Part shown: piece after piece, positions 2,069-64,000 of the stretch
Layout of the letters: each line of letters begins with the position of its first letter
How positions within the stretch are numbered: the stretch's first letter is position 1
Virus record (IMG/VR): IMGVR_UViG_3300042450_000799
Location: 11,872-75,871 of that record
Reading direction: 5' to 3' (one strand)
Source: a virus
Length of the DNA: 64,000 nucleotides
The notes under the pieces: model-generated
Told to the model about the DNA's origin: nothing
The model's input: only the letters and a program-made list of their open reading frames with translations
Database searches by the model: none
Translations under genes and position numbers: made by a program

Positions 2069-5000
2069 TAATTACATAATATATTAAAGTTTATTCCAAT
2101 ATTCAATTTAAAATTGATACCTTGTTCTGATACCGAACATACTTGATTAGATAACACCACAGTATCAGTTGTTGTTAAAAAATAATCATAACCATAAGTT
2201 TTTAAAGTCTCTAACCCAATTAAAAGAGCCGAATTCCACTCAGATATTGTTGGGACACTATAGACGGGACTATTGTATCCGATCCCATTAAAAAATGAAT
2301 AATCAACAATAATGACATCATCGATTCTCAAATCAACAAACCACTCACTTGTCATCCCATTGAAATCACAATCATTCAAATTATACCCATTATCCGCTAA
2401 ATAATTAGTTAATAATTGACCTAAAACCGCATTAAAATCTTGGATCACAGAGTTTTCCATCCAAGGATATATCGGACACTCAACTGTCTCTAATGGACAA
2501 TCATGTGAGAATAAGTTTGATGTGAGCGAACATGGTTTACAAGGAACTTTCATTAGTTGGCATCCCTCTTGTCTTCTCCAAACAAATTTTTGTCTATGAA
2601 AGATCGAATTCTCAAGTCGAACCCCCGTATTCCAAATTGTTGTTGCCGGAACCATTTGTTCCACTAATCGTATCCAATAATCCCCCAATCCATTAACATA
2701 TTCCATCATAGTTTTATATGTGAAATTATCATTTGGAACCCCAATAGTCTCATTTGATTGTAGATATCTCCAAAATATAGAATCTAAGGTTGGATACCCA
2801 CCAGTCTTACCATTAGAAGAGAATTGTCTATTTCTAACATTAATAGTATTTAACCAAAATGTTTGAGCAAACTCAAAGAAAGTTTTTCGACTTGGTTGTG
2901 GATTAATCTCAGTCCAATCTACGCCACCTCTACTCGGATAAGGACTATACGGTTTTGGATCACAAGGTGTTGGTGGAACGTAATTTAACCCCTCATCCGG
3001 TATTGGGTAATTATATTGCTGTGACATATACCATATATCGTAAGCAATCCCTTGTCCAGGATTTAAGAATAAATCAACATTCTTAACATTCAATACTAAT
3101 TTTTCATCCGACACATAATATCTAGCATTAAGATTGCCGTCAAGATTTCTTCTAATACCTATCTCATTATCAACCCAACTTTTATTGTTATCAATTGTTT
3201 CTCTTAACGTATACCCTAAATTCATAAATGGGAACTTACGATATCTATTCAAATATTCTTGACCATATGAATACGGTAATAATACTGTTTGATAATTCGG
3301 ATTATTACCCACAAATACACTATTAGTTAGGTCTACATTTTCTGGAGCCCTATGTTGTGGTGTTTGTTCAAACCATCCACTACCCATTTGAAAGAAATAA
3401 CTATCTGAGTTGATTGGTGTTGACGGATACCCATATTCATCCATAGGATATTCATCTATAGTTACATTAACATCTTGTATATCTCCCGTTGTTGTAAATC
3501 CAGTGTAAGTTTGACCAAAAATTGAATATATATCAGCAGTATCTAATACCGGTGTTTGTTGTACATAAGTACCTCCAGATATCTGAGAGAATTGTGTGTC
3601 AAATTGAGATATGTTAATTTTTTGATCAGCAAGATAAACATACTCATTAAAATCAATCAATGCTTCAGGAGCCCCAATTAACCTCATTAAAATTTCAATC
3701 GATTTTCTAGTTCCTTTAGATTTAAATAGATACGCAGAATTCAACACTAAATTTCTATAATATTGGTAATTCAACTCATCTGGTGTTTGTTCTTGAGATA
3801 ACCCAGGATAAACCGAAGCCTCATTATTTTTAGTCCCAAAGACTGATGTCAATAAATCTGTTTCTGATATTGGTGAAATATTAGTATTCCACCCAAGTGT
3901 TTGTGCAAGATTTTTAAGTAATTGTGATGGTATATCATTACCAACATTATAATTAACAGATGTCATATAAGATAATGCTGTTATGTATTTTTTAACATCA
4001 TCAAAACTTTTACCATAAATCTGTAACACTTTCTCAACTTTCTGATCTTGAGTGTCAAACTCTTTAAATGATCCCGTTGTTAAAAATCTCGAAACTAAAT
4101 TTGTTCTATATAAATCAAAAGATTCACTAAGATCACTTATTGAAATAATATACGTCTCAAAAGATTTTGTAATGATATCAATATTCCAAGTCCCATATAA
4201 TGGCCAAGTAATATTTTTATTCTGAATGTAATACGTCCCATCTTCAGATTCCTTCGGTATTTTAAATGTTGCCGTATATTTTGGTGTGACGTTTCTGTTT
4301 AATAGGAAGTTTTCAACTTCGTCTAAATTCTCATTAAACACCTTATTAACTTCCAAGTCATTTGGTCGTATAACCAAATCATCAGTAGTTACGGTCTGAC
4401 CTGAAAACGGATCCCCATAAACATACAATTTCAATGTCCCACTCGTTAAACTTGTTGTTGGAACGATTCCCGTTACTCCATACCCAACCCCATTATAATA
4501 AAGTGAGTATTTTGCATACTGAACTTTCATATCTCTTAATGGAGAGACTTGGATTTCCTTTAATTGTAAATTTCTAGTTGAGTTTACCGTAAAGTCAACG
4601 TCAAATGGATTACGTAATCTAGACAAATCTAACTCAAAACTAGTTTCATTATTTTTCTTATCATACGTAATATTATTAGCTGTAGGTCCCGTCACATAAT
4701 TAGGCCCCATATAAGTAACCTCTAACGCTCCCGGGAAATAACTAATTATTGTAGTAATTGACGCAGACATTCTTTTAACCATCGAACCATACAATGTAAA
4801 GTTAGTAACTTGAGTTAAATCGAAATTAGGGTATACTTTGAAATTGTTTTCAATAATCGCTTTAGATTGATCAAGACTCTCAATCCCTAACGAACTTAAA
4901 TTTATTGGTTCTGAAAATGTCCCAGTATTAAAAGTTCTATTTGTTTTCTCATTTGCCGATGTGGTAAATTCAAAATTCCCTTGCGTAAGACCTCCTCCCG

Positions 5001-8144: not shown

Positions 8145-8965
8145 TATGGGTTAATATATTCATACCATTTTATTGGTGAACCCGCACCTATACGGCTATT
8201 TAAATAATCAAATACTTGGTAAGTTTTTGTGGTATAATCTAAAACCACTTTATTATAAAAGTATCTACCACCATCAAATATGAATTTATCGGGTAAAATT
8301 CCTTGTGGTTCATTCATCATCTTAACGAAAACACCAAATCTGCCGTCAAAAAATTTAGCTGACATGTAGAATGTATCAATATTTAAATAAGTTATATCTT
8401 TCAACCAATAAATAAAAAACCCTTCTTTATCACCAACAAAATCCAGAGTATAAGACGGTTTTCTAATATCAACATTTGGTGTTAATGGTGATATACTCAC
8501 ATTTTCAGTCGCCCCTTGTTGTACAGGAATTATGATTGTAAAATAATTAGTTTGACTTTGGGAATCTTTTGTGTCGTAAAAATCAAGTTTAAAAAAAGAT
8601 TTGGTAAACGGTTTTTCATAAAAATAAACCTGTGTTGGTGAAAACCCAGATGGTACCGCATTTGGGAATAAATAACTATTAACCCAATCGGTTGATGTTG
8701 TAGACGCAATCACAGGAACACTAGAGTCATAAAAATGAAAATCATATTTAATTTCAGTTTTTTGATTTGGTTCATAAGATAAATGACTAAATCTTGATAC
8801 CTCATAATCTTTAGCAATACCAATAACATCCGTTAAAACATCTTCTTCATAAATCTCAATACTATCATCTCTACCATAGAAATCCCATTTAATTTCAATA
8901 GGTAAATCGATAGCTTTGTTTCCCGTTGGGATGGTAAATAAAAATTTGTTACTCACAATTATCAA
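8144..8965 (-). CDS. Putative structural protein
   Basis: 273 aa ORF overlapping both neighbours in the tail/baseplate operon. Confidence 0.55.
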   Translation of the reverse strand: MIIVSNKFLFTIPTGNKAIDLPIEIKWDFYGRDDSIEIYEEDVLTDVIGIAKDYEVSRFSHLSYEPNQKTEIKYDFHFYDSSVPVIASTTSTDWVNSYLFPNAVPSGFSPTQVYFYEKPFTKSFFKLDFYDTKDSQSQTNYFTIIIPVQQGATENVSISPLTPNVDIRKPSYTLDFVGDKEGFFIYWLKDITYLNIDTFYMSAKFFDGRFGVFVKMMNEPQGILPDKFIFDGGRYFYNKVVLDYTTKTYQVFDYLNSRIGAGSPIKWYEYINP

Positions 8966-10736
8966 TGGTTGGATCTGCGATTATGGTTTGTTCACTATAA
9001 TTAGTTCCTTCTGGTATTATTCTAAAAATAATATTACGAAAAGGGTAGTGAACACCGTTTAAAAAGGGGTAATTTACGCCAATACCACCACTATCAACAA
9101 ACCCATACGGATATAAATCTCTCCATATAAACGAATCTTTAGTTGTTGAGAAATGAGCATAATCCGGTATCCCAACAACATTTTTAATATCACCATCTTC
9201 AATATAATCTGAAAACACCCTTGTTGTTAACACATGATGTGGTTGATAATAATACCCAAGTTGATTCTCCACCGTAGTCCCAATTCTAAATGAAAAAGGA
9301 TTAAATCTTAATTTGTGAAATATGTTTGAGACAACCCTCTCTTTTTGGTCATAATCATTCCATTCACAATAATCACCATCAATAACATCCCCCTCTTTAA
9401 GGGATTCAATATATGTGAATGTTATTGGCCCTGATGCTGGGCCAAACCCTGTACTAATAGGGGTTGTATACGTATTAATTGGGAAATTACAATCGGAATT
9501 ACTTTGTCCATTCGACCACCAAGAACTAGGTTGACCTAATGGGTTTAAAGGTAAGTTAAATTCAAACCCTTGTTTTAATCCGTGATATCCTCCCAACCCA
9601 TCTGGTATACCAAACATCCATCCAAAATAACCTTTATATATAACGGTAAAGAATAATTCAGTTATTGGTCTTTTTTGGTTATCTCTAATCGGATTAACAC
9701 TAATATCTTTATTAAAAGATAATGTATAAGATTGAGACCCTTCTTTAATTGATACTCTAGCGATATGGTCAGGTGTTAATCCACTACTTTCATATTGTTT
9801 CTTTTGTCCAAAAACATTTTGCTCAAATCCAGCTTTAACTAAAATAGCATTTTCCGATTCTGTTAATAATTTATTTCTTCTAACATAATACGTTGAAATC
9901 GTATCCGCCTCATGGTCATTTAATATCACCCTTTTTGCCGTCCCTATTACACCATCATTAAAAACTCCAGGTAAGTATCCAACATCAATAATGTTAAAAA
10001 CATATTGTTCGCTACCAAAAGTATCAACCCCTAAAGAATCTATTTGAAATTTATCAATACCATTGTATAAAAAATTTAACTTAACAAATTCACCAACCGA
10101 CATTCCGTGTTTAACGGGACATCTAAATGAAATCGTATTCATACCATTATGGGTAGTATTCTCAATAATAAAAGGAATCCCATCGCCCACAACCCACGTC
10201 ATTGATGCGAACGTCTTTTTATCCGTTGCGGTCATAATTTTAGTATAATCATTTTCATACCCATAACTAACAAAGAAGTTCCAATTGTAACTTGACGCGC
10301 TTTGGGGTATAAATGTTAAATGTTCATTCGGTGATTGGGTATATCCCATAACATTATAATCTGTTCTAATAAAATCAAATTCATTATACTGGGGAAATCC
10401 TGACCACGACACATCGTTAGGGGGATTAGTACATTGGTCAATAGTCGCAGCAATCGAATTTATATAATATAAATTATTTTCAAATGGGGGGTAATTGGTA
10501 AATCCGGAATAAGAGTTTTGAAATAAAAGTGAAAATTTACACGTAGGTCTAATAACATCAGAATTTTGTCGTTCATCATTAAAAAGTCGTTCTAAATCAA
10601 CATCAATATTTCTATCAAACTCAACATTCTCTTTTACTGTCTGTATTAATGGTACGTTAAATAATAATGTTGTGTCCGGAGCGGATTTATAACGTAACGA
10701 ACCTAAAATTACCCTAATATCTTGTCTATTTCCCAT
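8949..10736 (-). CDS. Putative structural protein
   Basis: 595 aa aromatic- and beta-rich ORF in the tail/baseplate operon. Confidence 0.55.
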   Translation of the reverse strand: MGNRQDIRVILGSLRYKSAPDTTLLFNVPLIQTVKENVEFDRNIDVDLERLFNDERQNSDVIRPTCKFSLLFQNSYSGFTNYPPFENNLYYINSIAATIDQCTNPPNDVSWSGFPQYNEFDFIRTDYNVMGYTQSPNEHLTFIPQSASSYNWNFFVSYGYENDYTKIMTATDKKTFASMTWVVGDGIPFIIENTTHNGMNTISFRCPVKHGMSVGEFVKLNFLYNGIDKFQIDSLGVDTFGSEQYVFNIIDVGYLPGVFNDGVIGTAKRVILNDHEADTISTYYVRRNKLLTESENAILVKAGFEQNVFGQKKQYESSGLTPDHIARVSIKEGSQSYTLSFNKDISVNPIRDNQKRPITELFFTVIYKGYFGWMFGIPDGLGGYHGLKQGFEFNLPLNPLGQPSSWWSNGQSNSDCNFPINTYTTPISTGFGPASGPITFTYIESLKEGDVIDGDYCEWNDYDQKERVVSNIFHKLRFNPFSFRIGTTVENQLGYYYQPHHVLTTRVFSDYIEDGDIKNVVGIPDYAHFSTTKDSFIWRDLYPYGFVDSGGIGVNYPFLNGVHYPFRNIIFRIIPEGTNYSEQTIIADPTIDNCE

Positions 10737-59295: not shown

Positions 59296-59487
59296 ATGAA
59301 AATATTATTACACATATTCCATTTAATACCTATTATTGGTCTTGGAATTTTGGCGTTTCTATATCCAGGTTGGTATCGAGATGGATACTTGACAGATTGG
59401 TACCCTTTAATTGGGGCGTTCGTGGCAATTTATGGTGGGTTTGTCGGATCATTAATTTGGTATATACAGAATTTCAAAAACTTATGA
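59296..59487 (+). CDS. Small two-TM membrane protein
   Basis: 63 aa MKILLHIFHLIPIIGLGILAFLY...PLIGAFVAIYGGFVGSLIWY; TATTTAT at 59276-59282. Confidence 0.6.
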   Translation: MKILLHIFHLIPIIGLGILAFLYPGWYRDGYLTDWYPLIGAFVAIYGGFVGSLIWYIQNFKNL

Positions 59488-59870
59488 TGGTTTTTATTGG
59501 GTTCTTATGTTTCTCGTTATCGGGGATGTTTGAAGGCTTTATGGACACACTACAATTTCACTATTCAAGCTCCATTTTTTATTATAAAAAGAATAAAAAC
59601 TTTTGGAACCCAGAATTATCTTGGAAAAATAAATATAAAAACTCGGATCCCACTGAAGGACCTAGATTCCCCTTTTCAACAACACTACTTGTTGGTTTAA
59701 CAGATGCGTGGCATTTATTCAAATTACTTAGAACATTCTTCCTTTTTGCTGGTGTTTTTTTCATATTCGTTCCTTGTCAAACAACCATTGTATGTTTAAC
59801 ATATGTTTTTATATCGAGAATTTTGTATGGGATATTTTTCACCCTAACATTTGACTATACATCAAAATAA
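59484..59870 (+). CDS. Membrane protein
   Basis: ATGA-coupled start MMVFIGFLCFSL; SWKNKY...TDAWHLFK; three hydrophobic segments. Confidence 0.6.
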   Translation: MMVFIGFLCFSLSGMFEGFMDTLQFHYSSSIFYYKKNKNFWNPELSWKNKYKNSDPTEGPRFPFSTTLLVGLTDAWHLFKLLRTFFLFAGVFFIFVPCQTTIVCLTYVFISRILYGIFFTLTFDYTSK

Positions 59871-59876
59871 TATATT

Positions 59877-61076
59877 ATGAAAAATTTAAAAATTGGAATT
59901 ACACTAGGTCTAAAAGATAATAAAGAGTCGATTTGGACAAACGGAATTAAACAAAACATATTGATGTTAACTAAGTTATTAAAAAACTCGAATGAGAAAT
60001 ATGAGATAACTTTATTAAACACAATTGATGTTGATTGGTCGACTAAGCCAAGTTATTTAACCGATGTTAACATTTGTAACTTTAGGGATCACTACGAAGA
60101 CATGGATTTGTTAATCGTTATGGGAGCTCAGATTAATAAATCTGAAATTGAGAAGTTTAAATCAAAACCGAATAAAAAAATAATTGCATACAAATGCGGT
60201 AACAATTATATTCTAAGTGCTGAAAACATCCTGTTTAAAGAAGATGAGAAAAAAGTTTATCAATTCGATGAAGTATATGACGAGATATGGTATATACCTC
60301 AACAACATGAAACTAATTGTGGTTATTATCATACCCTATATCGGTCTAAAGCGTTTATCGTTCCTTTCATATGGCATCACCAATATCTACTAGAGGCTCT
60401 TGTTGATATTGAAAAAGGATTTAAAAAGGGTTCATTTAAAAAAGATTATCGATACAACATCGGTAAAGAAAAGAAACGATTGGGTGTGATGGAACCGAAC
60501 CTTAACATGGTTAAATTTTGTCTTATACCAGCAATGATTGCTGAAGAGTCTTATCGAGGTGATGTTGGTAAAGAACATATAGATAAGTTAATGCTTACCA
60601 ATTCCGAGAAAGTTGCTAAACACAAGGAGTTCATGGGTATGATTAGGACTTTTGATTTATTTAAAGACAATAAAATAACATCTGAAAGTAGATACCAAAC
60701 AGCATTTATATTGACCCAACATATCGATGTATTAATCTGTCATCAAATATTAAATCCATTAAATTATATTTACTTGGATGCTGCATATATGGGATATCCT
60801 GTATTACATAACGCTCCAATGTGTAAAGATTTGGGTTATTACTATGAAGGTTCAGATACAGTTGATGGTGCTAAACAATTGGATTACATATTAACTGAGC
60901 ATGATAAGAATATTGACTCGTATAATGAACGAAACGATAAAGTGTTGATGAGATATCATGCTGACAATCAGAAATTGGTTAAAACATATGATAAATTAAT
61001 TCATAACTTGTTTAATGGGGGTAATGATGGTTTGGAATATAATCCGAAAACAAATTTGTATAAAAATCTAAAATGA
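59877..61076 (+). CDS. DUF2827-like protein (putative GT-B glycosyltransferase)
   Basis: SIWTNGIKQN N-terminus; MEPNLNMVK; HQILNPLNYIYLDAAYMGYPVLHN. Confidence 0.65.
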   Translation: MKNLKIGITLGLKDNKESIWTNGIKQNILMLTKLLKNSNEKYEITLLNTIDVDWSTKPSYLTDVNICNFRDHYEDMDLLIVMGAQINKSEIEKFKSKPNKKIIAYKCGNNYILSAENILFKEDEKKVYQFDEVYDEIWYIPQQHETNCGYYHTLYRSKAFIVPFIWHHQYLLEALVDIEKGFKKGSFKKDYRYNIGKEKKRLGVMEPNLNMVKFCLIPAMIAEESYRGDVGKEHIDKLMLTNSEKVAKHKEFMGMIRTFDLFKDNKITSESRYQTAFILTQHIDVLICHQILNPLNYIYLDAAYMGYPVLHNAPMCKDLGYYYEGSDTVDGAKQLDYILTEHDKNIDSYNERNDKVLMRYHADNQKLVKTYDKLIHNLFNGGNDGLEYNPKTNLYKNLK

Positions 61077-61143: not shown

Positions 61144-64000
61144 TTATAAAGTCCAATAAACATCAATATATCCGCCAAATGGACCATAACCAGATGGTGC
61201 ATATTGAATACAATTCCAAGTTTGTCCTTCATGGGTTACAACAGCACCAATGTTATAAATCGTTCCGCCATCCCATGGTTGTGTTGGAGGAGTTCCACCA
61301 CTATTAACACCTTTTACTCTTAGTTTACCACTTCCAACTGCGATTAAATCTAAACCATCAAAACTCCAACCTAGGTTATTTAATAGGTTATCATAATCAG
61401 TGTTACTTGCCGATGTTCTACCATTACTTGAAAGAAATTCACCACCAGATAATCCATTTTGATTAAGTTGATTTAGTATTTGATTGTTTACGGATGATGT
61501 TAATTGGTTAGTATATAAATTCAAATAAGTTAAACTAGATAAACTAGATAATCCAGTTCCGTCAAATGATGTTAATTGGTTCTCTTGTAAATTCAAATAA
61601 GTTAAACTCCCTAATCCACTTCCATCAAATGATGTTAAGAGGTTATCATTTAAAATCAAATTAGTTAAACTTGTTGGTAAATTACTAACTGATGTTAATA
61701 TACCACCCCCAGATTTACCGTCTCCCATTATAAGCAAATTAGTTAAACTCTCTAATCCAGTTCCATCAAATGATGTTAATTGGTTATAATTTAACTCCAA
61801 TATAGTTAAACTCTCTAATCCAGTTCCACCAAACGATGTTAATTGATTATAATTTAAATACAACTCAGTTAAACTAGATAAACCAGTTCCGTCAAATGAT
61901 GTTAATTGGTTACTTTGTAAATCCAAATAAGTTAAACCAGATAAACCAGTTCCGTCAAATGATGTTAATTGGTTATTACTTAAATACAACTCAATTAAAC
62001 TAGATAATCCAGTTCCGTCAAATGATGTTAGTTGGTTATTATATAAATTCAAACTAGTTACATCTCCACTAACTGTTCCATCTGAATCACATGAAATGAT
62101 TGTGTATTCACCGTTTATGTTTGTTATTGTGATTGTTTGTCCCCCATCATTTTGGTCAAATACACTTGAATCACTTCCATCGTGATTATATTTCCAAAAT
62201 CCAGTTGATGTATTAACATTAATGTTAATTGAATCTCCAACTGATTTGGATGTTATGAATGTTGGTGGTATGATTAAATCTAAACCAGTGATTGACCAAC
62301 CTAAACTTACTAAGTTATCATAATCGGCGTTACTTGCAGATGTTCTACCATTACTTGAATAAAATTCACCCCCAGATAATCCATTTTGATTAAGTTGATT
62401 TAGTATTTGGTTGTTTACGGATGATGTTAATTGGTTATCATTTATTTCTAAATAAATTAAACTAGATAATCCAGTTCCGTCAAATGATGTTAATTGGTTA
62501 GTTTGTAAATACAACTCAGTTAAACTAGATAAACCAGTTCCGTCAAATGATGTTAATTGGTTACCTTGTAAATACAATTGAGTTAAACTAGATAAACCAG
62601 TTCCGTCAAATGATGTTAATTGGTTAAGACCTAAATTCAAATTAGTTAAACTAGATAAATCAGTTCCGTCAAATGATGTTAATTGGTTATTATTTAAGTC
62701 CAAATCAGTTAAACTAGATAAACCAGTTCCGTCAAATAAAGTGATTTGGTTTTCAACTAAGCTCAACATAGTTAAATCTCCATTGACTGTACCATCTGAA
62801 TCACATGATATTATTGTGAATTCACCGTTTGCATTTGTTACTGAGATTATTTGTCCCCCATTATTTTGGTTAAATACACTTGAATCACTTCCATTGTGAT
62901 TATATTTCCAAAATCCAGTTGATGTTTGAACCCAAATGTTGATTGATTCTCCAACTGCTTTGGATGTTATGAATGTTGGTTGTGTTGTAGTGATTAAATC
63001 TAAACCTTCAAAATACCAACCTAAACTTACTAGGTTATCATAATCAGTGTTACTTGTCGATGTTCTACCATTACTTGAATAAAATTCACCATTTGATAAT
63101 CCATTTAATGCTAATTGATTTAGTATTTGATTGTTTACTGATGGTGTGAATGGATTACCTTCTAATCCCAAACTAGTTAAACTAGATAAACCCGTTCCGT
63201 CAAATGATGTTAATTGGTTAAAACCTAATTCCAAATTAGTTAAACTAGATAAACCAGTTCCGTTAAATAATGTTAATTGGTTATCACCTAAATTCAAACC
63301 AGTTACATTACCACTAACTGTACCTTCTGAATCACATGAAATGATTGTAAATTCACCGTTTATGTTCGCTACTGGTATACTATATACCCAACCATTTGCG
63401 TTTATACTTGAATCACTACCATCGTGATTATATTTCCAATATCCAGTTGATGTTTGAATATAAACGTTGATTGTTTCTCCAATGGATTTGGATGTTATGA
63501 ATGTTGGAAGTATAGGTAAATCTAAACCAGATAATGTCCAACCTAAACTTAATAGGTTATCATAATCAGTGTTACTTGTCGATGTTCTACCATTACTTGA
63601 ATAAAATTCACCATTTGATAATCCATTTAATGCTAATTGATTTAGTATTTGATTGTTTGATGATGGTGTGAATGGATTACCATTTATTTCTAAATAAATT
63701 AAACTAGATAAACCAGTTCCGTCAAATGATGTTAATTGGTTATCAGTTAAATCCAAATCAGTTAAACTAGATAATCCAGTTCCGTCAAATGATGTTAATT
63801 GGTTATCACCTAAACTCAAATTAGTTAAACTTGTTAAATCTGTTCCGTCAAATGATGTTAATTGGTTATTATATAAAACCAAACTAGTTAAACTTGTTGG
63901 TAAAATAAAACCATCCAATGATGTTAATTGGTTATTTCTTAAGTCCAACAGAGTTAAACTAGATAAACCAGTTCCGTCAAATAAAGTGATTTGGTTTTCA
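61144..64000 (-). CDS. Multi-module leucine-rich-repeat protein with C-terminal CBM5/12-like domain (5' end off window)
   Basis: 21-aa LRRs LTSFDGTGLSSLTxLxLxxNQ in capped modules; frame stays open upstream of 63948 (ENQITLFDGTGLSSLTLL); C-terminal PWDGGTIYNIGAVVTHEGQTW. Confidence 0.85.
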   Translation of the reverse strand, partial: ENQITLFDGTGLSSLTLLDLRNNQLTSLDGFILPTSLTSLVLYNNQLTSFDGTDLTSLTNLSLGDNQLTSFDGTGLSSLTDLDLTDNQLTSFDGTGLSSLIYLEINGNPFTPSSNNQILNQLALNGLSNGEFYSSNGRTSTSNTDYDNLLSLGWTLSGLDLPILPTFITSKSIGETINVYIQTSTGYWKYNHDGSDSSINANGWVYSIPVANINGEFTIISCDSEGTVSGNVTGLNLGDNQLTLFNGTGLSSLTNLELGFNQLTSFDGTGLSSLTSLGLEGNPFTPSVNNQILNQLALNGLSNGEFYSSNGRTSTSNTDYDNLVSLGWYFEGLDLITTTQPTFITSKAVGESINIWVQTSTGFWKYNHNGSDSSVFNQNNGGQIISVTNANGEFTIISCDSDGTVNGDLTMLSLVENQITLFDGTGLSSLTDLDLNNNQLTSFDGTDLSSLTNLNLGLNQLTSFDGTGLSSLTQLYLQGNQLTSFDGTGLSSLTELYLQTNQLTSFDGTGLSSLIYLEINDNQLTSSVNNQILNQLNQNGLSGGEFYSSNGRTSASNADYDNLVSLGWSITGLDLIIPPTFITSKSVGDSININVNTSTGFWKYNHDGSDSSVFDQNDGGQTITITNINGEYTIISCDSDGTVSGDVTSLNLYNNQLTSFDGTGLSSLIELYLSNNQLTSFDGTGLSGLTYLDLQSNQLTSFDGTGLSSLTELYLNYNQLTSFGGTGLESLTILELNYNQLTSFDGTGLESLTNLLIMGDGKSGGGILTSVSNLPTSLTNLILNDNLLTSFDGSGLGSLTYLNLQENQLTSFDGTGLSSLSSLTYLNLYTNQLTSSVNNQILNQLNQNGLSGGEFLSSNGRTSASNTDYDNLLNNLGWSFDGLDLIAVGSGKLRVKGVNSGGTPPTQPWDGGTIYNIGAVVTHEGQTWNCIQYAPSGYGPFGGYIDVYWTL

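What the first reader, a model, noticed from the sequence alone, without database searches (positions are those of the whole stretch)
61144..64000. VLR-like modular LRR protein: constant framework, hypervariable binding face, variable repeat number
Seen: at least 4 tandem modules, each an N-cap (FITSK...WKYNH...SCDSxGTV; starts at 63501, 62973, 62259; the first is off-window), then about 5, 2, 5 and 8 further LRRs, then a C-cap (NNQILNQL...GW...GLDL). Within the 63-nt repeats the framework (AACCAATTAACATCATTTGACGGAACTGG.TTATCTAGTTTAAC) is almost invariant even at synonymous sites. The x positions of TxLxLxxNQ differ in nearly every copy (N-S-GD, D-D-TD, Q-Y-QG, E-Y-QT, Y-D-QS, E-Y-NY). Parts are reassorted: a 106-nt identical C-cap segment at 63031-63136 and 63553-63658; 49 identical nt at 62707-62755 and 63952-64000; LIYLEIN is used as last repeat in two modules with different caps. 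Known: these positions form the concave ligand-binding sheet, and lamprey VLRs diversify by assembling LRR cassettes between caps. Inference: a recombination-diversified binder array (receptor binding or anti-defence) ending in a carbohydrate-binding-like domain.
Basis: partly seen in the sequence, partly recalled or inferred. Interest (0 to 1): 0.78.

Follow-up and report, generated by a model that had tools for sequence, protein, structure and literature searches.

The report
Six-module hypervariable LRR protein of phage
A large uncultured lake-water phage encodes one 1569-residue protein made of six copies of a leucine-rich-repeat binding module whose scaffold is almost identical in every repeat while four surface residues per repeat are nearly randomised. 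It looks like an inherited, recombination-shuffled set of binding surfaces, probably for attachment, and not a lamprey-style programmed receptor.

Summary
Window 61144-63999 (-) is the C-terminal 951 aa of a 1569-aa protein (P0121, a second assembly, 100% identical). It has six fused modules. Each is a ~67-aa beta-sandwich domain, then 3-11 LRRs of 21 aa, then a two-helix cap. One invariant GKLRVKG peptide and a CBM5/12-like tail follow the last module.

In 18 regular 63-nt units, codons 3, 5, 7 and 8 have 7-9 different residues (dN 1.14). The other 17 codons are about 90% identical in DNA (dS 0.20, dN 0.085). AlphaFold2 (pLDDT 96) puts positions 3-5 on the concave strand. A recombination breakpoint lies inside one repeat.

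Related phages keep the flanking gene at 96% identity but rebuild the locus with 1-6 modules and about 1-27 repeats. No reverse transcriptase or silent cassettes were found. Array pieces are identical in lake runs of 2020 and 2023. Diversification is therefore evolutionary (unequal recombination plus selection), not programmed. The closest analogues are the highly conserved repeats of fungal NLRs and the Flavobacterium psychrophilum LRR locus.

The function is inferred, not shown: a fibre-associated, virion-exposed multivalent adhesin. This scan has already noted similar phage LRR repertoires in at least 85 other genomes.

The parts
61144..63999 (-). C-terminal 951 codons plus stop of a 1569-aa six-module LRR protein. 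The 5' end runs off the contig.
   Evidence: ORF list. The window end is the contig end. The full-length P0121 is 100% identical over 951 aa.
63505..63999 (-).
   Evidence: The last 49 nt of the window are identical to 62707-62755.
62977..63504 (-). Module 4: N-domain, 3 LRRs and C-cap. Its cap shares 106 identical nt with the cap of module 3.
62263..62976 (-). Module 5: N-domain (62776-62976), 6 LRRs, C-cap and the IIPP linker.
   Evidence: AlphaFold2 model with pLDDT 96 and pTM 0.91. It shows a beta-sandwich, a six-strand concave sheet and a two-helix cap. Foldseek gives generic LRR matches.
61342..62262 (-). Module 6: N-domain (62062-62262), 9 LRRs including one irregular Gly-rich unit, and C-cap (61342-61488).
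   Evidence: In the model, pLDDT is above 90 up to GLDL.
61309..61326 (-). Invariant K-L-R-V-K-G junction peptide, flanked by Gly/Ser/Thr/Pro linkers.
   Evidence: The motif lies C-terminal to LRR modules and N-terminal in sister ORFs of the same locus in relatives. Its DNA pattern occurs only in this locus in five phage records, with 0 control hits. It is predicted to be unstructured on its own, pLDDT below 50.
61147..61275 (-). CBM5/12-like C-terminal domain (WDGGTIYNIGAVV..QTWNCIQYAP..).
   Evidence: Pfam PF02839 E 1.5e-5, 25.4 bits, just under the 26.2 cut-off. A profile of four phage tails hits chitinase A1 ChBD 1ED7 at E 0.0028. The model is of low confidence.
59877..61076 (+). Convergent neighbour gene, DUF2827. 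It is the conserved flank of the variable locus.
   Evidence: Pfam E 1.5e-99. It is 95.9% nt identical to relative L002 while PolB is 65-70%. dS 0.14-0.21 and dN 0.006-0.011.

Best explanation
SHOWN.
- The gene encodes a 1569-aa chain of six complete binder modules. Each is a small Ig/PKD-like beta-sandwich, a 21-residue LRR solenoid of 3-11 turns and a helical cap.
- Short Pro/Thr linkers join the modules. One GKLRVKG peptide and a CBM5/12-like tail end the chain.
- Repeats and modules are recent paralogues (synonymous divergence about 0.2).
- They exchange segments by homologous recombination or gene conversion.
- Four residues per repeat, on and just after the concave beta-strand, have been driven to near-random polar or aromatic residues (N, Y, G, S, D).
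- Related phages that share the flanking gene rebuild the locus with different numbers of genes, modules and repeats.

INFERRED.
- Diversity arises in the germ line over evolutionary time. The mechanisms are unequal crossing-over or slippage between near-identical 63-nt units, plus diversifying selection. No dedicated diversifying enzyme is involved.
- The protein is exposed on the virion, probably attached to the long coiled-coil fibre that is encoded just upstream in relatives.
- It acts as a multivalent adhesin or host-recognition accessory that presents about 40 different LRR faces and a glycan-binding tail.
- The likely hosts are freshwater Flavobacteriaceae.
For: Architecture.

Hypervariable positions against framework:
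- Codon table.
- Nei-Gojobori estimates: variable codons dN 1.14, framework dS 0.20 and dN 0.085.
- Nucleotide identity 0.90 for the framework against 0.46 for the variable codons.
- Family-wide, 652 units give 551 distinct four-residue signatures. Entropy is 2.8-3.6 bits at positions 3, 5, 7 and 8 and at most 1.7 bits elsewhere.

Concave face: the DSSP strands of the model fall on unit positions 3-5.

Recombination: exact 106- and 49-nt repeats and a breakpoint inside the last LRR.

Locus plasticity with a conserved flank.

Not programmed:
- No RVT_1 in five phage records, one of them 96% complete.
- No cassettes outside the locus.
- Identical array in a second assembly. Identical pieces in four runs, and the off-window module 2/3 junction DLQGLDVVIP was recovered in 2020 runs.
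- L003 equals L006 over 20,453 nt.

Exposed or fibre-associated:
- In relatives the order is long coiled-coil fibre gene, then a KLRVKG-start ORF, then the LRR genes.
- In L014 the order is head-tail adaptor, a weak tail-fibre hit, the fibre, then the LRR genes.
- CBM5/12-like tail and poly-Thr linkers in relatives.
- The best viral structural matches are PKD-domain phage proteins.
- No signal peptide or T9SS domain.

Host hint: the only hit among 185,579 species genomes is a phage-like contig binned with a Flavobacteriaceae MAG. The runs that hold the sequence are lake water.
Against: - No direct evidence that the protein is in the virion. The neighbouring genes in this window are replication genes (PolB, a DnaJ-like gene) and DUF2827.
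- The fibre gene is not on this contig. Its role as a virion fibre rests only on synteny and weak PHROG hits.
- The CBM assignment is just below Pfam's cut-off and the tail model is poor.
- Framework identity is as high between phages as within the gene. 'Concerted evolution within the gene' is therefore not separable from a recently shared unit pool.
- The Logan contigs are short and drop rare variants, so population invariance is not proven.
- The ligand is unknown.
Confidence: 0.5

Rival explanations
1. Intracellular binder set: the modules act inside the host cell, either injected with the DNA or made early. They would bind host proteins for takeover or anti-defence, as LRR type III effectors or T4 internal proteins do.
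For: - The 20-21-residue LRR class resembles SlrP, SspH2 and InlJ, weakly (30 bits).
- A Tenacibaculum phage LRR ORF is annotated SlrP.
- There is no signal peptide.
- The gene sits beside replication genes in this window.
- Other follow-ups in this scan proposed capsid-targeting leaders for other phage LRR families.
Against: - The N-terminal MATFITSK is a beta-strand of the folded N-domain (pLDDT 98). It recurs at every internal module start, so it is not a removable leader.
- The CBM5/12-like tail, the poly-Thr/Pro linkers and the PKD-like fold are typical of extracellular proteins.
- The locus follows a fibre gene in relatives.
- A 1569-aa protein is large for an injected protein.
Confidence: 0.2
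2. Environmental anchoring rather than host recognition: the LRR faces and the chitin-binding-like tail hold virions on particles, chitin or polysaccharide matrices where hosts live, as proposed for Ig-like decorations of phages.
For: - CBM5/12-like tail whose nearest solved relative is a chitinase chitin-binding domain.
- N/Y/S/D/G-rich and Lys/Arg-poor variable faces, compatible with glycan binding.
- Lake-water origin.
Against: - Strong diversification and locus turnover between close relatives is what is expected of an arms race with a variable host surface. It is not expected for binding a uniform polymer such as chitin.
- Only some family members carry the CBM motif (15 proteins in the count).
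Confidence: 0.15
3. Programmed diversification: VLR-like cassette assembly, a diversity-generating retroelement or a shufflon creates new arrays within a phage population.
For: - Near-identical framework DNA with changes concentrated in four codons.
- Variable codons are mostly NNT, as an AAY-templated DGR would give.
- Mosaic modules.
Against: - No reverse transcriptase in five records, including a 96%-complete relative. The positive controls worked.
- No cassettes outside the ORFs, and all copies are in one orientation.
- Identical arrays in separate assemblies and runs.
- The NNT bias fits the codon usage of a 31% GC genome, and CAA, GAG, GAA and ATG also occur.
Confidence: 0.05
4. Assembly artefact: the order and number of repeats is a short-read mis-assembly of a simpler gene or of several genes.
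For: - The contig ends inside the array at a 49-nt repeat.
- k=31 contigs shatter across the array.
- Illumina assemblies of highly conserved repeats are known to fail (PMC12222747).
Against: - A second contig (65,326 nt) carries the same 951 aa within a complete 1569-aa ORF.
- The longest exact repeat is 106 nt, so large-k assemblies can span it.
- Unique pieces and the module 2/3 junction are present in independent runs.
- Relatives L003 and L006 assemble identically.
Confidence: 0.05

Closest known systems
Repeats with high internal conservation in fungal NLRs (Podospora het-d/het-e WD40 domains; PMC12222747)
   Same: Tandem repeats 80-100% identical. Four hypervariable codons per repeat under diversifying selection on the binding surface. 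Repeat gain, loss and shuffling by unequal crossing-over. Short-read assemblies are unreliable for them.
   Different: WD40 propeller attached to a NACHT NLR in a eukaryote. Here it is an LRR solenoid in a phage protein with no nucleotide-binding domain. Allelic length polymorphism within a population is not shown here.
Flavobacterium psychrophilum tandem LRR surface-protein locus (Duchaud 2007; Altae-Tran et al. 2020, PMC10392669)
   Same: LRRs of about 21-22 residues with hypervariable positions on one face. 2-14 repeats per protein. The locus is restructured between strains while the flanks are conserved. No mobile-element genes. It occurs in the probable host clade.
   Different: Bacterial, with a signal peptide and a T9SS sorting domain, separate genes and many gene fragments. 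Here the gene is phage-encoded, has no secretion signals, and has its own N-domain, cap and KLRVKG peptide. Up to six modules are fused in one chain.
Lamprey/hagfish variable lymphocyte receptors
   Same: LRR solenoid with a hypervariable concave face and a variable number of internal repeats between constant ends. Hagfish VLR 2o6r is among the top Foldseek hits.
   Different: From general knowledge, VLRs are assembled somatically from silent flanking cassettes by AID-like deaminases and have Cys-rich LRRNT/LRRCT caps. None of this was found here. The structural match is no better than to Leptospira, SDS22 or internalin LRRs.
DUF7941 'fibre cloud' proteins of jumbo phage Goslar (bioRxiv 10.64898/2026.04.21.720040)
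   Same: Jumbo-phage proteins with a small N-terminal module followed by LRR/beta-helix or carbohydrate-binding domains. They are proposed host-recognition elements that chain head to tail through a disordered peptide.
   Different: No sequence relation was tested or seen, and that paper reports DUF7941 only in chimalliviruses. Head-to-tail docking is only a hypothesis here.
LRR type III effectors (SlrP, SspH1/2, IpaH) and internalins
   Same: Short bacterial-type LRRs. Weak NCBIfam and Foldseek similarity.
   Different: Scores of 26-30 bits against cut-offs above 1100. No NEL ligase domain, no internalin cap or inter-repeat domain.
DGR-diversified phage receptor-binding proteins (Bordetella phage BPP-1 Mtd; general knowledge)
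   Same: A phage varies a small set of ligand-contacting residues on a fixed scaffold.
   Different: A DGR needs a reverse transcriptase and a template repeat, and acts on a C-type-lectin fold. No RT was found and the scaffold here is LRR.

Membership tests
Leucine-rich repeat superfamily | LxxLxLxxN repeats that match the Pfam LRR models and fold as a solenoid with a concave beta-sheet | tested here: met
   LRR_4 171 bits and LRR_8 143 bits, cut-off 27. AlphaFold2 solenoid with pLDDT 96. 114 PDB LRR matches at E<=1e-3.
VLR-type assembled receptors | An incomplete expressed gene plus banks of silent LRR cassettes used as donors | tested here: not met
   All module matches in the 96%-complete relative and in four other records lie inside the expressed ORFs of one locus, on the same strand.
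VLR-type assembled receptors | Cys-rich LRRNT and LRRCT caps | tested here: not met
   No LRRNT or LRRCT Pfam hit. The N-terminal element is a beta-sandwich and the C-cap is two helices.
VLR-type assembled receptors | AID/APOBEC-like deaminase that drives gene conversion | not tested
   No deaminase search was run. Three quarters of this genome are missing.
Diversity-generating retroelement target | Reverse transcriptase encoded near the variable gene | tested here: not met
   PF00078 is absent from G000-G004, including a 281-kb, 96%-complete relative. The control genomes were positive.
Diversity-generating retroelement target | A template/variable repeat pair that differs only at template adenines | tested here: inconclusive
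   Variable codons are mostly NNT, but non-NNT codons occur and no separate template copy exists.
Repeats with high internal conservation (works-like comparison) | Tandem repeats at least about 80% identical in DNA | tested here: met
   Mean pairwise identity is 0.81 over all 63 nt and 0.90 over the 51 framework nt.
Repeats with high internal conservation (works-like comparison) | A few hypervariable codons with dN far above dS, located on the binding face | tested here: met
   dN 1.14 at codons 3, 5, 7 and 8 against framework dS 0.20. The strands fall at unit positions 3-5.
Repeats with high internal conservation (works-like comparison) | Repeat-number polymorphism among alleles of one population | tested here: inconclusive
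   Between related phages the answer is yes. Within this phage's population no variant was resolved. Contigs only, and the joints seen are explained by off-window modules.
Bacteroidota T9SS LRR adhesins (F. psychrophilum type) | N-terminal signal peptide and C-terminal T9SS sorting domain | tested here: not met
   No PF18962 or other sorting domain. The protein starts MATFITSK, which is part of the folded domain.
NEL-type LRR effectors (SlrP/SspH/IpaH) | Score above the NCBIfam equivalog cut-off and a C-terminal NEL ligase domain | tested here: not met
   26-30 bits against cut-offs of 1113-1243. There is no NEL domain.
CBM family 5/12 | Match to PF02839 above the gathering score | tested here: inconclusive
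   25.4 bits against 26.2. A profile of four tails hits 1ED7 at E 0.0028. The AlphaFold2 tail has pLDDT below 50.
T4-type capsid-targeted internal proteins | Short cleavable N-terminal leader that is not part of the mature fold | tested here: not met
   Residues 2-4 form a strand of the N-domain at pLDDT 98, and the same sequence recurs at five internal module starts. Cleavage itself was not testable.

The most novel reading that the evidence does not exclude
The invariant G-K-L-R-V/I-K-G peptide may be a docking strand. It is found only in this locus: after the last LRR module, or at the very N-terminus of sister proteins, and always between flexible linkers. It would plug interchangeable binder proteins onto the >1000-residue coiled-coil fibre encoded just upstream. 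Such phages would then carry a plug-in, rapidly reshuffled repertoire of LRR binders. The six-module chain would be a covalently concatenated version that displays about 40 different binding faces per molecule.
Probability: 0.15. Interest if true: 0.8.

Novelty: new variant of a known kind. Interest (0 to 1): 0.55.

Why it matters
Phage host recognition is usually explained by tail-fibre mosaicism or by DGRs. Here a third route appears in uncultured freshwater jumbo phages. An LRR scaffold is kept nearly identical at the DNA level, so that repeats and whole modules recombine freely, while selection randomises four contact residues per repeat.

The same evolutionary design is known from fungal NLRs and from a Flavobacterium surface-protein locus. 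This phage version is therefore a further, probably independent, use of it, possibly facing the same design in its host clade.

The family is small: 85 clusters among 1.84 billion representatives. It has no cultured member, and its N-domain and junction peptide are undescribed. If the proteins are virion adhesins, they are natural modular binders with a defined paratope (N/Y/S/D/G-rich). They could be used to study host-range evolution in lakes or as engineerable scaffolds.

Tried and rejected
- DGR: no RT.
- Silent or inverted cassettes: none.
- tRNAs in the window: none.
- PHROG, Pfam, NCBIfam and PDB sequence searches of the fibre, the small KLRVKG ORF, DUF2827 and the L005 C-terminal domain gave nothing useful.
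- ESM Atlas on the N-domain: scores 0.76-0.77, a lead only (PKD in 26% of one cluster).
- The TATTTAT late-promoter motif noted by earlier readers is not upstream of the locus genes in relatives.
- The locus-specific upstream element ATAAACAATTAAAAAT is not enriched in the window: 2 hits against 1.6 expected.
- Apparent alternative joints and a 'separate gene start' in the Logan contigs looked at first like population polymorphism. They were rejected. The 30-nt insert encodes DLQGLDVVIP, the module 2/3 junction of the same full-length gene. The loose end is consistent with the gene's own start, cross-mapped onto a paralogous module.
- Parts of the array without contig cover in some runs are not evidence of absence.
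- Cultured phages: only short LRR-only matches in Tenacibaculum phages PTm1 and PTm5, with no N-domain. The nearest tail sheath is only 31-37% identical (Microcystis and Flavobacterium phages).
Full report
CONTEXT. The window is bases 11872-75871 of a 75,871-bp IMG/VR virus contig, estimated 26% complete, and the window end is the contig end. GC is about 31-35%. Tail sheath, baseplate wedge, ribonucleotide reductase, DnaB, a helicase, a head-tail adaptor and a family-B polymerase mark it as a large myovirus. No cultured phage is close: the best tail-sheath identities are 31-37%, to Microcystis and Flavobacterium phages. Runs that hold the sequence are lake-water metagenomes.

THE OBSERVATION. 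The minus-strand ORF 61144..63999 is open at its 5' end.
- It has TFITSK domain starts at 63504, 62976 and 62262. NNQILNQL caps and GLDL ends fall at regular places.
- The LRR counts are at least 6, then 3, 6 and 9.
- Tandem Repeats Finder reports 63-nt arrays. Pfam LRR_4 and LRR_8 match at E 2e-51 and 2e-42.
- In 17 regular units, 17 of the 21 codons are almost invariant, down to position-specific synonymous choices. Leu4 is always TTG, Leu1/6/19 are TTA, Thr2 is ACT, Thr12 is ACA and Gly16 is GGA.
- Codons 3, 5, 7 and 8 carry 7-9 different residues.
- By Nei-Gojobori, the variable codons have dN 1.14 (pN 0.585). The framework has dS 0.20 and dN 0.085. Nucleotide identity is 0.90 for the framework against 0.46 for the variable codons.
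- The last repeat of the first visible module is a mosaic. It equals module C for LIYLEIN (21/21 nt). It then equals module B for the next 128 nt with 2 mismatches, against 24 mismatches to C.

FULL-LENGTH GENE. A protein search found P0121, 1569 aa, from a different 65,326-nt contig. It is 100% identical over all 951 window residues.
- It starts MATFITSK and has six modules with about 4, 11, 6, 3, 6 and 9 LRRs.
- Logan contigs of two 2020 lake runs contain the off-window junction of modules 2 and 3 (DLQGLDVVIP). Pieces inside the array are letter-identical in runs of 2020 and 2023 from four studies.
- An assembly artefact is therefore unlikely, and no population variant was resolved. These are contigs and cannot show rare variants.

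STRUCTURE. AlphaFold2 on module 5 with 30 homologues gave pLDDT 96 and pTM 0.91.
- The model has a ~67-residue beta-sandwich, six LRR turns whose strands fall on unit positions 3-5, and a two-helix cap.
- By the established geometry of LRRs, positions 3 and 5 point out of the concave sheet, and 7-8 follow on the same face.
- Foldseek finds only generic LRR proteins in the PDB: Leptospira LIC10831, hagfish VLR, SDS22 and internalins, at E about 1e-5. In the viral library it finds PKD-domain phage proteins and giant-virus LRRs.
- Module 6 folds equally well up to GLDL. The KLRVKG peptide and the tail are of low confidence.
- The tail is CBM5/12-like. Pfam gives 25.4 bits against a cut-off of 26.2. 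A four-sequence profile hits the chitin-binding domain of chitinase A1 at E 0.0028.

RELATIVES.
- Six IMG/VR loci carry the family. DUF2827, the convergent neighbour, is 95.9% nt identical to L002 (dS 0.14-0.21, dN about 0.01), while PolB is 65-70% identical.
- Yet the LRR locus differs completely between them. There are two single-module genes in L002, one ~27-repeat gene with the CBM tail in L003, three modules fused through poly-Thr linkers in L005, and two fused modules plus a KLRIKG-first module in L014.
- Among the retrieved homologues that carry the N-domain, 101 have one module, 20 have two and 4 have three. One has six (P0121). P0122 has five by my pattern and six by HMM stretches.
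- Family-wide, 652 regular units give 551 different four-residue signatures. Entropy is 2.8-3.6 bits at positions 3, 5, 7 and 8 and at most 1.7 bits elsewhere. The composition is N 23%, Y 13%, G 12%, S 11%, D 10% and K 0.6%.
- An N-domain profile finds only 85 clusters among 1.84 billion representatives. It finds one hit in 185,579 species genomes, a phage-like contig binned with a Flavobacteriaceae MAG.

IS THE DIVERSIFICATION PROGRAMMED?
- No reverse transcriptase in five records, including a 281-kb, 96%-complete relative. The controls were positive.
- All module matches lie within the ORFs of the one locus, in one orientation.
- L003 and L006, from two IMG datasets, are identical over 20,453 nt including the array.
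- Framework identity is as high between phages (0.89-0.91) as within the gene. Unit divergence (dS 0.2) is similar to that of the flanking gene between phages.
The pattern fits ordinary recombination among near-identical units plus diversifying selection on evolutionary time. This is what is described for the highly conserved repeats of fungal NLRs, which also have four hypervariable codons (PMC12222747), and for the F. psychrophilum LRR locus (PMC10392669). The VLR comparison holds for shape, not for mechanism.

FUNCTION (inferred).
- In relatives the LRR genes directly follow a 960-1150-aa Ala/Glu-rich coiled-coil protein and a small ORF that begins with KLRVKG.
- In L014 the order is head-tail adaptor, a 169-aa ORF, a 227-aa ORF with a weak tail-fibre hit, the fibre, then the LRR genes.
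- The KLR[VI]KG peptide occurs once per protein, after the last module or at the N-terminus of sister proteins. Its DNA pattern occurs nowhere else in five phage records.
- Three further features matter: the CBM-like tail, the Thr/Pro linkers and the absence of secretion signals. Together they make a virion-exposed, fibre-associated multivalent adhesin the best reading.
- Earlier notes on this genome report poly-Thr/Pro tags in many virion proteins. I did not test that.
- A similar idea, small N-terminal modules carrying LRR or carbohydrate-binding domains in a fibre cloud, was proposed for phage Goslar (bioRxiv 10.64898/2026.04.21.720040).
- An intracellular or injected role, as suggested by other follow-ups of this scan for other phage LRR families, fits less well here. 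The N-terminal sequence is a strand of the folded domain and recurs inside the chain.

NOVELTY. Five full-text searches found no paper on phage-encoded LRR arrays of this type. The scan itself has already noted comparable phage LRR repertoires in at least 85 genomes. What is particular here is threefold. Six complete modules are concatenated in one polypeptide. The N-domain is undescribed. The junction peptide is specific to this locus. I class it as a new variant of a known kind.

LIMITS.
- There are no expression or proteomic data.
- Three quarters of the genome are missing.
- Read evidence is from contigs only.

Noticed in passing
window 59877-61076 (+); L002:10967-12166; L003:11566-12765: The DUF2827 gene next to the LRR locus is 95.9% nt identical between phages whose PolB is only 65-70% identical. 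dS is 0.14-0.21 and dN about 0.01. The fibre/LRR/DUF2827 block therefore looks recently exchanged between otherwise diverged jumbo phages. The function of DUF2827 is unknown, with no PDB, PHROG or NCBIfam match.
   Followed up: partly
L002:7980-8042, 8460-8487, 9965-9994; L003:9400-9436; L014:5150-5211: Every gene of the fibre/LRR locus in relatives is preceded by a similar AT-rich leader (..ATAAACAATTAAAAAT..AAAAAATT-ATG). A G+C-rich hairpin often follows the previous gene. The element is not enriched in the window, so it looks locus-specific and suggests co-regulation of the fibre and LRR genes.
   Followed up: partly
L002:4567-7950; L003:3666-7112; L014:2232-5120: A coiled-coil-like protein of 960-1150 aa lies upstream. 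It has many internal repeats (..ADVDAEESRA..SAEGVLTADLSSEV..), a conserved N-terminus (MSNTKIVLNRQSDLIL) and an Ig-like C-terminal end. It has no Pfam or PDB relative. It is probably a neck or tail fibre and the candidate carrier of the LRR proteins.
   Followed up: partly
window 61669-61745 (-), aa 752-777 of the window ORF: One irregular LRR turn with a Gly-rich insertion (LTNLLIMGDGKSGGGILTSVSNLPTS). Its sequence is conserved in relatives (LHLSGPRGGGGTLTSVSNLPSS in L002 and L003). It is a fixed feature in an otherwise shuffled array, and pLDDT dips to 74 there.
   Followed up: no
L003:7642-9177; L007:1489-4035 and 4039-4260: Sister proteins of the locus begin with the KLRVKG peptide and a Gly/Thr linker, then carry other payloads. 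These are a different LRR type with a novel N-terminal domain, an 849-aa protein, and a 74-aa ORF that is only KLRIKG plus the CBM5/12-like domain.
   Followed up: partly
L005:4601-5917: In one relative the three-module LRR chain continues, after KLRIKG and a poly-Thr linker, into a 439-aa C-terminal region with no Pfam or PHROG match.
   Followed up: partly
window 59370-59870 (+): A 166-aa ORF with several hydrophobic stretches lies between the DnaJ-like gene and DUF2827. It has no family match and may be a small membrane protein.
   Followed up: no
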